Shown here: positions 12,722-13,213 of the stretch, piece after piece
How positions within the stretch are numbered: the stretch's first letter is position 1
Layout: every line of letters starts with the position of its first letter
From: a virus
DNA length: 64,000 nt
Direction: 5' to 3' (one strand)
Virus record (IMG/VR): IMGVR_UViG_3300003323_001187
The notes under the pieces: model-generated
Databases searched by the model: none
What the model was told of the DNA's origin: nothing
The model's input: only the letters and a program-made list of their open reading frames with translations
Program-made: the position numbers and the translations under genes

Positions 12722-13213
12722 TTACTCAACGCACCAGTCAGTTGCCAGCATGTCGGTCTGGGAGGCGAGCCACCCCATGAGGATCTCGCCGGTTGCTGTC
12801 TTGAAGGTGAGGCATGGCAGCACGGTGCATGATCCGCCATTCTCCTGAGCATACTTTTGGTTTGCCGGGGACCAGAATGCTTCGGCTGGGAAGTTGGGCA
12901 TGCCAGGAGAGTAGGCAATGAACATTCCTTTGCCATTCCATCCGGACCGGTACGCACGTCCGCCCTTCTTGATGTGTTCGATTGCTTCACCAAATGATTT
13001 TAGAACTCCATGGTCCACCTCAAATACTGTCTGTTGAAATTCTTTGTTTAGAACGTCGTTTGATTTACGTTCATCTACCTGGAAGTCGTTCAGGCTGAAT
13101 GCCTCTTCTTGATGCACCGGATACTGACGCAAGTGGTCAGCTGTCGCTTCATCTACCTGGAAAGACTTCTGTCCGTCGGGATAGCCATTTTGTTCGTCTG
13201 TGATGTTTACCAT
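12722..13213 (-). CDS. DUF2829/Tad2-like domain protein with a repeat-containing N-terminal extension
   Basis: C-terminal 90 aa read [26 protein letters not shown]...[29 protein letters not shown], matching the DUF2829 signature. The N-terminal 70 aa carry three F(Q/E)VD(E/H) repeats. Confidence 0.7.
   Translation of the reverse strand: [163 protein letters not shown]

What the first reader, a model, noticed from the sequence alone, without database searches (positions are those of the whole stretch)
12722..13213. DUF2829/Tad2-like anti-defence domain fused to a novel repeat-bearing N-terminus
Residues about 73-163 carry the DUF2829 signature ([26 protein letters not shown] ... [14 protein letters not shown]). 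DUF2829 is the family of Tad2, a phage sponge that sequesters Thoeris gcADPR signals. Typical members are stand-alone proteins of about 90 aa. Here the domain is preceded by about 70 acidic residues containing three F(Q/E)VD(E/H) repeats (SFQVDEA, DFQVDER, VFEVDHG), with no internal Met that could serve as an alternative start. The gene belongs to a small unit (12525-14318) closed by a clean terminator at 12455-12490, and that unit also holds other unknown small proteins.
Basis: partly seen in the sequence, partly recalled or inferred. Interest (0 to 1): 0.65.

Follow-up and report, generated by a model that had tools for sequence, protein, structure and literature searches.

The report
Phage Tad2 sponge with acidic tail
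This phage gene encodes an ordinary-looking Tad2 "sponge" that should mop up bacterial alarm molecules; it carries an orphan acidic, floppy N-terminal extension, but extended Tad2 proteins are common and one has already been solved, so the finding is only modestly new.

Summary
ORF 12722-13213 (-) encodes 163 aa. Residues 73-162 are a confident Tad2/DUF2829 domain (Pfam 78 bits; SptTad2 E=4e-17; AF2 pLDDT 89-98; Foldseek TM 0.80). Every gcADPR-pocket residue of SPO1 Tad2 and HgmTad2 is kept, whereas the cGG/cGAMP pocket of HgmTad2 is not.

Residues 1-72 are acidic (net -9) and predicted to be mostly disordered. They contain FQVDE twice, as an exact 15-nt DNA repeat, plus FEVDH.

The premise that Tad2 proteins are stand-alone ~90-aa proteins is overstated. 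About 40% of close relatives have N-terminal extensions. A solved member, pdAcrIIA7 (9KZR), has an acidic N-terminal head that modulates nucleic-acid binding.

This particular N-terminus is an orphan, with no hit among 1.84 billion representatives, PDB, IMG/VR, GTDB or INPHARED. Only two metagenomic relatives share its first 8 residues, length and charge, and neither has the FxVD repeats.

Best reading: an early phage sponge for TIR-derived ADPR signals with a lineage-specific accessory acidic tail.

Two genes upstream lies a candidate Acb2/Tad1-hairpin protein, which suggests a small anti-defence cluster.

Verdict: a new variant of a known kind, of modest interest.

The parts
12722..13213 (-). 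Complete gene: 163-aa protein made of an N-terminal extension plus a Tad2 domain (stop codon at 12722-12724)
   Evidence: ORF list. The identical protein is found on two metagenome contigs, one from root and one from soil.
12725..12997 (-). Tad2/DUF2829 domain, residues 73-163. Predicted gcADPR-pocket residues: W92 N93 G94, F137, T139, W148 L149, S151, T153 D154.
   Evidence: Pfam PF11195 at 78.4 bits. phmmer to SptTad2 8wjd E=4e-17, HgmTad2 8kbi 1e-14 and SPO1 Tad2 8e-11. AF2 pLDDT 89-98. Foldseek to 8wjd: TM 0.80, rmsd 2.0 A. Pocket residues were mapped through the and alignments onto residues named in PMC10680739 and 10.1101/2023.05.01.538930.
12998..13213 (-). Orphan acidic N-terminal extension, residues 1-72 (net charge -9). 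Predicted mostly disordered, with two short helices at residues 22-30 and 48-61.
   Evidence: Composition and Uversky metric. AF2 pLDDT is 56-62, except about 84 for residues 21-30. No hits among 1.84 billion representatives or in PDB.
13188..13213 (-). First 26 nt of the gene (M-V-N-I-T-D-E-Q-N), almost identical at DNA level in the three N-extended relatives
   Evidence: DNA alignment of the window, L001 and L002. Protein alignment.
13148..13162 (-). FQVDE motif copy 1 (residues 18-22); exact 15-nt repeat
13070..13084 (-). FQVDE motif copy 2 (residues 44-48); exact 15-nt repeat
13010..13024 (-). FEVDH motif copy 3 (residues 64-68); contains the in-frame GTG at codon 66
12456..12493 (-). Intrinsic-terminator-like hairpin plus T-run that closes the gene run
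12525..12701 (-). Downstream 58-aa gene of unknown function (PHROG 8591, E=6.6e-5); last gene before the terminator
13207..13533 (-). Upstream 108-aa gene of unknown function; its stop overlaps the Tad2 start codon, which suggests translational coupling
13638..14318 (-). 226-aa neighbour. N-terminal CxxC...C-x2-GH zinc-ribbon-like segment, a long low-confidence linker, and a C-terminal helical hairpin (about residues 137-226) that matches the Pfam Acb2/Tad1 hairpin domain. Candidate second sponge.
   Evidence: Pfam PF24729 at 27.2 bits (cut-off 27). Five homologues score 32-39 bits and a sixth 22.7. AF2 pLDDT 84-95 for the hairpin. Not confirmed by Foldseek or by a PDB profile search.

Best explanation
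The gene encodes a Tad2-family signal sponge made early in infection by a novel soil/rhizosphere phage.

Shown. The C-terminal 91 residues are a Tad2 domain with the complete gcADPR-binding residue set.

Inferred from the solved family members. Like them, the domain should assemble into a homotetramer with two pockets at protomer interfaces. These pockets would sequester TIR-made ADP-ribose-derived signals (1''-3' gcADPR = 3'cADPR and related isomers). The Thoeris-type effector is then never activated.

Inferred from residue substitutions. The second (cyclic-dinucleotide) pocket described for HgmTad2/SptTad2 is not conserved, so cGG/cGAMP sequestration in that mode is not expected.

Inferred by analogy. 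The 72-residue N-terminus is a lineage-specific, strongly acidic, largely disordered appendage that leaves helix alpha-1, the helix that interlocks the tetramer. The most likely role is accessory. By analogy with the acidic, flexible head of pdAcrIIA7, it would shield or gate the surface around the tetramer core (keeping nucleic acids off and aiding solubility or selectivity) without blocking ligand binding.

The FxVD motifs each precede a predicted helix. The two exact copies look like a recent micro-duplication, not a conserved functional repeat.
For: Tad2 identity:
- Pfam 78.4 bits.
- PDB sequence matches to four experimentally characterised Tad2 proteins.
- AF2 pLDDT 89-98 and Foldseek TM 0.80 to the SptTad2-cGG structure.

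Pocket:
- The HgmTad2 residues W21 N22 G23 W87 L88 S90 T92 D93 correspond to W92 N93 G94 W148 L149 S151 T153 D154.
- The SPO1 residues W25 N26 T65 W73 S76 T78 D79 are identical in the query. SPO1 I63 is replaced by F137 (alignments).

The N-extension is coding and maintained:
- Three diverged relatives keep open extensions of 72, 82 and 75 codons.
- All three share the start MxNITxEQ and a net charge of -9 to -10.
- The start codon overlaps the upstream stop.

Precedent for the accessory role:
- The 48-aa head of pdAcrIIA7 is negatively charged and flexible.
- It does not prevent tetramer formation or cyclic-nucleotide binding, but it blocks sgRNA binding (PMC13133391).

Context:
- The gene lies in a minus-strand block of small early-type genes in a phage genome that also carries terminase, portal, primase and clamp genes.
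- A candidate Acb2/Tad1-hairpin protein lies two genes upstream.
Against:
- The Tad2 family is functionally plastic. Different members bind 3'cADPR, His-ADPR, N7-cADPR, cGG/cGAMP or cUMP/cCMP (PMC12393519). The exact ligand therefore cannot be read from the conserved pocket alone.
- The N-terminus has no sequence similarity to the pdAcrIIA7 head. It is predicted disordered, whereas that head is folded.
- Only 2 of the 3 lysines essential for RNA binding in AcrIIA7 are present: K58 and K71 correspond to K82 and K95, but K66 corresponds to S90. It is thus unclear whether there is a nucleic-acid-binding groove to shield.
- The host is unknown, so the presence of Thoeris in the host is untested.
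Confidence: 0.72

Rival explanations
1. The N-terminal extension carries a second, independent anti-defence activity. It could act as an acidic nucleic-acid mimic, or as a short-linear-motif (FxVD) decoy that binds a host defence protein. The protein would then be a two-in-one inhibitor.
For: - Net charge of -9 over 72 residues, conserved in bulk in the two relatives.
- The FQVDE repeat is non-random.
- The extreme N-terminus is conserved.
- Sponge domains are often fused to varied N-terminal modules, for example RyR or crAss001_48 domains.
Against: - The FxVD motifs are absent from both relatives.
- There is no homology to any known mimic or any other protein.
- AF2 gives low confidence and no fold.
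- Identical 15-nt copies point to recent duplication, not selection on a peptide motif.
Confidence: 0.12
2. The extension is functionally dispensable. It would be a fast-evolving spacer, or the active species is a short form of about 98 aa started at the in-frame GTG of codon 66. That short form would have the length of a classical stand-alone Tad2.
For: - GTG at codon 66 lies 8 codons before the domain.
- Genes in this phage lack Shine-Dalgarno motifs, so start choice is not constrained by one.
- The extension's sequence is poorly conserved.
- A natural headless AcrIIA7 form exists alongside the long form.
Against: - All three relatives keep long open extensions with an almost identical first 26 nt and the same charge and length.
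- The chance of 72 stop-free codons is about 3% per sequence (own calculation, (61/64)^72).
- The ATG overlaps the upstream stop codon, which favours coupled initiation there.
Confidence: 0.13
3. The protein acts mainly as an AcrIIA7-type anti-CRISPR that sequesters type II-A tracrRNA in the basic groove of the tetramer.
For: - It belongs to the same domain family as AcrIIA7.
- K82 and K95 correspond to the essential residues K58 and K71 of pdAcrIIA7.
Against: - The third essential lysine (K66) is S90 here, and K93 corresponds to W114.
- The core is about neutral (7 basic, 8 acidic), and the whole protein carries a net charge of -10.
- In pdAcrIIA7 the N-terminal head itself suppresses sgRNA binding.
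- AcrIIA7 activity is disputed for HgmTad2.
Confidence: 0.03

Closest known systems
SptTad2 (Sphingobacterium thalpophilum prophage Tad2, PDB 8WJD) and HgmTad2/AcrIIA7 (PDB 8KBI-8KBM)
   Same: - Best sequence matches (E=4e-17 and 1e-14) and best fold match (TM 0.80 for 8wjd).
- Identical gcADPR-pocket residues (with the alignment).
- A medium-to-long insertion between beta2 and beta5.
   Different: - The insertion is about 31 aa here, against 35-41 aa in those proteins.
- The cGG/cGAMP contacts R31, N85 and F70 are S102, M146 and V131 here. Only S47 is kept (S115).
- Those proteins have no N-terminal extension.
pdAcrIIA7 from Phocaeicola dorei (PDB 9KZR; Lee & Park 2026, PMC13133391)
   Same: - A Tad2 core preceded by a negatively charged, flexible N-terminal appendage.
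- That appendage is compatible with tetramer formation and cyclic-nucleotide binding, and it modulates access to the core.
- The query's extension is likewise acidic and is predicted to hold two helices.
   Different: - No sequence similarity between the two N-termini.
- 72 aa, predicted mostly disordered, net -9 here, against 48 aa folded as two long helices. A head of this type on IMG/VR locus L079 has net -5.
- One of the three RNA-binding lysines is missing.
SPO1 Tad2 (Gp34.65; PDB 8SME/8SMF/8SMG), founding member
   Same: - Same domain.
- W25/N26/W73/D79/T78/S76/T65 are all conserved.
- It is a phage early anti-Thoeris sponge.
   Different: - SPO1 Tad2 is 89 aa with a 24-aa insertion and no extension.
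- Identity is about 35%.
Other N-extended DUF2829 proteins (PHROG 1048/872; 'YIGTK...GYLVEY...SWSPK..FE.AY' N-domain type and others)
   Same: The architecture is an N-terminal module followed by a C-terminal Tad2 domain. This is found in about 40% of close relatives.
   Different: - Their N-modules look like small folded domains and are unrelated to this one. In hhalign the only aligned signal comes from the shared alpha-1 anchor.
- None of these N-modules is characterised.

Membership tests
Tad2 / DUF2829 (Pfam PF11195) | Profile match above the curated gathering score | tested here: met
   78.4 bits against a cut-off of 25; residues 73-162 cover profile positions 2-72 of 73.
Tad2 / DUF2829 (Pfam PF11195) | [quoted passage not shown] | tested here: met
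   The AF2 model has pLDDT 89-98 over the domain. Foldseek top 24 hits are all Tad2 structures; the best is 8wjd with TM 0.80 and rmsd 2.0 A.
Tad2 / DUF2829 (Pfam PF11195) | gcADPR-pocket residues: W-N-G in the beta1-beta2 loop and the W-x-x-S-x-T-D motif | tested here: met
   W92 N93 G94 and W148 L149 A150 S151 Q152 T153 D154 are identical to HgmTad2. They match SPO1 W25 N26 W73 S76 T78 D79.
Tad2 / DUF2829 (Pfam PF11195) | Homotetramer with two interface pockets | not testable with these tools
   Only monomer AF2 was available. The precedent that an N-extension is compatible with a tetramer comes from pdAcrIIA7 MALS data.
Tad2 / DUF2829 (Pfam PF11195) | Binds and sequesters Thoeris signal; rescues phage from Thoeris | not testable with these tools
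   Needs biochemistry and plaque assays.
Cyclic-dinucleotide-binding Tad2 subgroup (HgmTad2, SptTad2, SaTad2) | Insertion of 35-41 residues between beta2 and beta5, with contacts R31, S47, F70 and N85 | tested here: not met
   The insertion is about 31 residues (P103-P133). R31 is S102, F70 is V131 and N85 is M146; only S47 = S115 is kept.
AcrIIA7 long form (pdAcrIIA7, head + core + extended domain) | Homologous N-terminal two-helix head domain | tested here: not met
   phmmer of residues 1-73 against PDB at E<=10 gave 0 hits. Resemblance is limited to acidity and two predicted helices.
AcrIIA7 long form (pdAcrIIA7, head + core + extended domain) | Basic-groove residues K58, K66 and K71 required for tracrRNA binding | tested here: not met
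   K58 = K82 and K71 = K95, but K66 = S90 (mapping via the alignment; residues named).
Acb2/Tad1 hairpin domain (Pfam PF24729), for the neighbouring gene 13638-14318 | Profile match above the gathering score, and a helical-hairpin fold resembling Acb2/Tad1 | tested here: inconclusive
   27.2 bits against a cut-off of 27. Five homologues score 32-39 bits and a sixth 22.7, below the cut-off. AF2 gives a confident helix-hairpin-helix. Foldseek finds no Acb2/Tad1 match, and an HMM of the domain finds nothing in PDB at E<=1. Single-sequence phmmer to Acb2 p26 reaches only E=0.7.

The most novel reading that the evidence does not exclude
The orphan acidic, disordered N-terminus is not a passive tail. 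It would be a functional regulatory or second-target module, either gating the Tad2 pockets or groove or acting as a decoy for another host defence component. Together with the neighbouring zinc-ribbon + Acb2/Tad1-hairpin protein, it would define a class of 'N-terminally armed' sponges in phages of hosts that do not use Shine-Dalgarno sequences (perhaps Bacteroidota; the host is not identified). The sponge core would then be combined with a targeting or regulatory appendage.
Probability: 0.15. Interest if true: 0.6.

Novelty: new variant of a known kind. Interest (0 to 1): 0.3.

Why it matters
Tad2 sponges are among the most widespread phage counter-defence proteins, and their ligand range is still being mapped. 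This protein adds a member from an uncultivated soil phage. It has an intact gcADPR pocket, a divergent second-pocket region, and an N-terminal extension of a type not yet studied (long, acidic, disordered).

About 40% of close relatives carry some N-terminal module. The only one examined so far, the pdAcrIIA7 head, changes what the core can bind. The general question of what these appendages do is therefore open and tractable, and this protein would be one test case among many.

The adjacent candidate Acb2/Tad1-hairpin gene hints at a compact anti-signalling cluster, which could help flag further anti-defence genes among the surrounding unknown ORFs.

None of this overturns current understanding.

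Tried and rejected
1. Homology of the N-terminus. No similarity was found by any route:
- phmmer of residues 1-72 against 1.84 billion representatives gave 0 hits.
- phmmer against PDB at E<=10 gave 0 hits.
- Peptide patterns [16 protein letters not shown] and NKEFQQTV were scanned in IMG/VR and in GTDB genomes. All relatives match only residues about 73-162.
- tblastn against INPHARED phages: 276 records match, none covering 80% or more of the query.

2. The N-terminus as a degenerate copy of the common 'YIGTK...SWSPK..FE.AY' N-domain. The hhalign alignment is carried only by the shared alpha-1 anchor, with zero confidence elsewhere. Rejected.

3. More relatives through the conserved 5' 18-mer (AACATCACAGANGAACAA) in metagenome contigs. 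None encodes a Tad2 domain, and the few ATG-preceded matches are unrelated ORFs. This led nowhere.

4. Megablast of 5 kb around the gene against cultured phages gave no match. The phage is very divergent, with only weak PHROG hits for terminase and portal.

5. NCBIfam gave nothing for any gene in the cluster.

6. Structural confirmation of the neighbour as Acb2-like. Foldseek on the full-length model (mean pLDDT 60) and a PDB profile search were both negative. It is kept only as a candidate.

7. Co-occurrence of g226-like genes with Tad2 in other loci. None was found by tblastn in the 84 loci then held.

8. Capsid-targeting or injection-signal role for the conserved MxNITxEQ start. Considered, but no other ORF in the window shares it and there is no supporting evidence. 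Left as speculation.

Full report
**What is there.** The minus strand carries an ATG-started ORF at 12722-13213 that encodes 163 aa. Its start codon overlaps the stop codon of the upstream 108-aa gene (ATGGTAA). A 58-aa gene follows. After it comes a strong intrinsic-terminator-like hairpin (12 pairs, 12466-12493) with a T-run. Tightly spaced or overlapping minus-strand genes continue upstream to at least 16369, and no minus-strand terminator was predicted in between.

The window is a phage genome. It has a plus-strand structural block with weakly recognisable terminase and portal genes. Minus-strand blocks hold many small genes plus primase/helicase, sliding-clamp and ParB-like genes. The phage is very divergent, with no megablast match among 50,697 phage records. 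The same Tad2 protein occurs on a root-metagenome contig and a soil-metagenome contig. No gene in the window has a Shine-Dalgarno motif upstream; the leaders are A-rich instead. From general knowledge this is typical of Bacteroidota, so that is a host guess, not a result.

**The C-terminal domain.**
- Residues 73-162 match Pfam PF11195 (Tad2-like) at E=6e-22, 78.4 bits against a cut-off of 25.
- By sequence they match four experimentally studied Tad2 proteins in PDB: SptTad2 (E=4e-17), HgmTad2/AcrIIA7 (1e-14), SPO1 Tad2 (8e-11) and Myroides Tad2 (7.5e-10).
- An AlphaFold2 model built on 120 homologues has pLDDT 89-98 across the domain.
- Foldseek returns only Tad2 structures as significant hits. 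The best is SptTad2-cGG with TM 0.80 and rmsd 2.0 A.

I mapped the ligand contacts described in the literature through these alignments.
- The 1''-2'/1''-3' gcADPR contacts of HgmTad2 are W21, N22, G23, W87, L88, S90, T92 and D93 (PMC10680739). They correspond to W92, N93, G94, W148, L149, S151, T153 and D154, and all are identical.
- The SPO1 Tad2 contacts W25, N26, T65, W73, S76, T78 and D79 (10.1101/2023.05.01.538930) are also identical. SPO1 I63 is F137.
- The cyclic-dinucleotide pocket of HgmTad2/SptTad2 is not kept. R31 is S102, F70 is V131 and N85 is M146; only S47 survives as S115.
- The beta2-beta5 insertion is about 31 residues, against the 35-41 reported for CDN binders and 24 in SPO1.

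The domain is therefore a Tad2 with an intact ADPR-signal pocket. It has a different second-pocket region, which is conserved within its own subclade (invariant or near-invariant F113, W114, N118, G126, G127 and P133 among the 120 closest homologues). The family is functionally plastic: members bind 3'cADPR, His-ADPR, N7-cADPR, cGG/cGAMP or cUMP/cCMP (PMC12393519). The precise ligand set cannot be read from sequence.

**The N-terminal 72 residues.**
- They hold 15 acidic and 6 basic residues, a net charge of -9.
- They fall on the disordered side of the charge-hydropathy boundary.
- AF2 pLDDT is 56-62, except for a short helix at 22-30 (about 84). A second, low-confidence helix lies at 48-61.
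- The motifs F18QVDE, F44QVDE and F64EVDH are present.
- The repeat is unlikely by chance. An exact 5-mer repeat occurs in 0.17% of residue shuffles. The pattern chosen after the fact never occurs three times in 200,000 shuffles. A pattern-agnostic test reaches the observed level in 5.9% of shuffles.
- The two FQVDE copies are an exact 15-nt DNA repeat (1 in 20,000 codon shuffles) with unrelated flanks.
- Each motif sits immediately before, or a few residues before, a predicted helix. The third precedes alpha-1 of the Tad2 domain.

- Of the 120 closest homologues, 46 are at least 140 aa long.
- Of 80 IMG/VR Tad2 loci, 33 have an in-frame N-extension of 30 aa or more.
- The best PHROG profiles (1048, 872, 30130) are 172-262 positions long with the Tad2 part at the C-terminal end.
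- The N-modules are of several unrelated kinds. Most are absent from Pfam, and one relative carries a RyR-like segment that scores just below Pfam's cut-off (25.1 against 27.4 bits).
- PDB 9KZR is a 158-aa AcrIIA7 from Phocaeicola dorei (PMC13133391). Its extra 48 N-terminal residues form a negatively charged, flexible two-helix 'head'. Removing the head does not affect the tetramer. The full-length protein still binds cyclic signalling molecules, but the head prevents sgRNA binding in the basic groove of the core.
- A group of 47-48-aa acidic extensions of this type is visible among the IMG/VR loci.

**Is this particular extension new?** Yes, at the sequence level.
- phmmer of residues 1-72 against 1.84 billion cluster representatives gave no hit at E<=0.001.
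- phmmer against PDB at E<=10 gave none.
- Peptide-pattern scans of IMG/VR and of 185,579 GTDB species genomes found relatives of the C-domain only.
- 276 cultured-phage records match, none beyond the domain.
- hhalign against the commonest N-module type showed no real similarity.

Only two metagenomic proteins share the type. P0002 is 173 aa, and its contig also carries a homologue of a neighbouring window gene. P0107 is 167 aa. Both start MxNITxEQ, and both have acidic extensions of 75-82 residues with net charge -9 or -10, predicted disordered. P0002 also shares the segment (H/F)LRQ(Y/H)PVH..E.F, which coincides with the better-predicted helix. Neither has the FxVD motifs.

The first 26 nt of the three genes are almost identical even at synonymous sites, although the proteins are about 50% identical overall. 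So the extreme 5' end is constrained at nucleotide or peptide level for an unknown reason. An A-rich unstructured initiation region in an SD-less host is the simplest guess.

Three independently diverged open extensions with conserved start, length and charge argue that the extension is translated and maintained. The lack of FxVD conservation and the DNA-identical copies argue that the 'repeats' are a recent local duplication.

**How it most likely works.**
- Shown: a Tad2 domain with a complete gcADPR pocket, in a phage, in a block of early-type genes.
- Inferred from the solved family members: tetramerisation through alpha-1 and the alpha-2/beta-2 interface, giving two pockets that sequester TIR-derived ADPR signals and silence Thoeris-type effectors.
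- Inferred by analogy with pdAcrIIA7 only: the acidic N-terminus, which emerges from alpha-1 next to the tetramer core, acts as an accessory shield or gate that affects selectivity, nucleic-acid exclusion or solubility, and not as part of the pocket.

Points against that analogy:
- There is no homology between the two N-termini.
- The query extension is predicted disordered, whereas the pdAcrIIA7 head is folded.
- One of the three lysines essential for RNA binding in AcrIIA7 is missing (K66 = S90).
- The core is about neutral.

Rival readings are listed with their tests: a second independent activity of the tail, a dispensable tail or a short isoform started at GTG66, and a tracrRNA-binding anti-CRISPR.

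**Context worth noting.** Two genes upstream, the 226-aa product of 13638-14318 matches the Pfam Acb2/Tad1 hairpin domain at threshold (27.2 against 27 bits). Five of its homologues score 32-39 bits and a sixth 22.7. They carry other N-modules, namely RyR and crAss001_48. AF2 gives a confident helix / beta-hairpin / helix for residues about 139-223 and low confidence for the rest. The low-confidence part includes a CPECG...C-x2-GH zinc-ribbon-like N-terminus shared with two homologues that lack the hairpin. Foldseek and a PDB profile search did not confirm similarity to Acb2, so this remains a candidate second sponge. If real, both genes follow the same plan of a variable N-module plus a C-terminal sponge, and the region would be a small anti-signalling cluster.

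**Verdict.** It is wrong to treat an N-terminal extension as exceptional or the FxVD repeats as a defining feature. This is a new variant of a well-known kind of phage counter-defence protein. Interest is modest (0.3), with some upside if the acidic tail proves to be regulatory.

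Noticed in passing
window 10796-10845 (-); L002 10331-10380 (+): A type I hammerhead ribozyme (Rfam RF00163, 38.3 bits against gathering score 34) with an intact CUGAUGAG...CGAAAC...GUC core. It lies about 1.6 kb downstream of the Tad2-cluster terminator. A near-identical hammerhead (36.8 bits) sits at the equivalent place in the related metagenomic phage contig L002.
   Followed up: partly
window 10531-12465: A gene-poor stretch with higher GC (0.47) and a flipped AT skew. 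Two segments of about 170 nt (11037-11208 and 10531-10700) are about 80% identical at DNA level to L001, and partly to L002, although neighbouring proteins are only about 50% identical. The two segments also resemble each other (83% over 42 nt). They lie upstream of small ORFs of 54 and 63 aa. They could be conserved leaders or promoters, or a structured RNA.
   Followed up: partly
window 13638-14318 (-): A 226-aa protein with a zinc-ribbon-like N-terminus, a long low-confidence linker and a C-terminal Acb2/Tad1-hairpin domain (Pfam PF24729, at threshold). It is a candidate second signal sponge next to the Tad2 gene.
   Followed up: partly
window 13188-13213 (-); L001 2127-2152; L002 8001-8026: The first 26 nt of the three N-extended Tad2 genes are almost identical, including synonymous positions, in genes that are otherwise about 50% identical at protein level.
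   Followed up: partly
window 5854-5929 (-): A tRNA-like gene. ARAGORN reports an undetermined identity with a four-base anticodon (tggt). Rfam tRNA scores 30.6 bits, just above the gathering score of 29. It may be a tRNA with an expanded anticodon loop, or a degenerate tRNA.
   Followed up: no
window 1799-2737 (-): An IS1595/ISXO2-type transposase (DDE_Tnp_IS1595 at 159 bits plus its zinc ribbon) lies inside the phage genome.
   Followed up: partly
whole window, gene starts listed: No Shine-Dalgarno-like motif lies upstream of any of 38 inspected genes; the leaders are A-rich. This suggests a host that does not use SD-led initiation, such as Bacteroidota.
   Followed up: partly
homologues P0093 (Tad2) and P0124 (Acb2/Tad1 hairpin): Relatives of both sponge-domain families carry an N-terminal RyR-like segment (Pfam PF02026). 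It scores 38.5 bits in P0124 (above the cut-off) and 25.1 bits in P0093 (just below the 27.4 cut-off). This hints at shared N-terminal partner modules for unrelated sponge cores.
   Followed up: no
homologue P0002 (L001 2127-2648): The closest full-length relative has a diverged pocket motif, GWNPTNADVL instead of [10 protein letters not shown]. Its ligand specificity may therefore differ from that of the window protein.
   Followed up: no
window 33088-37527 (+) and 40674-48188 (+): Two very large ORFs (1479 aa and 2504 aa) lie in the structural block. The 1479-aa ORF had no PHROG match, and the 2504-aa ORF was not searched.
   Followed up: no
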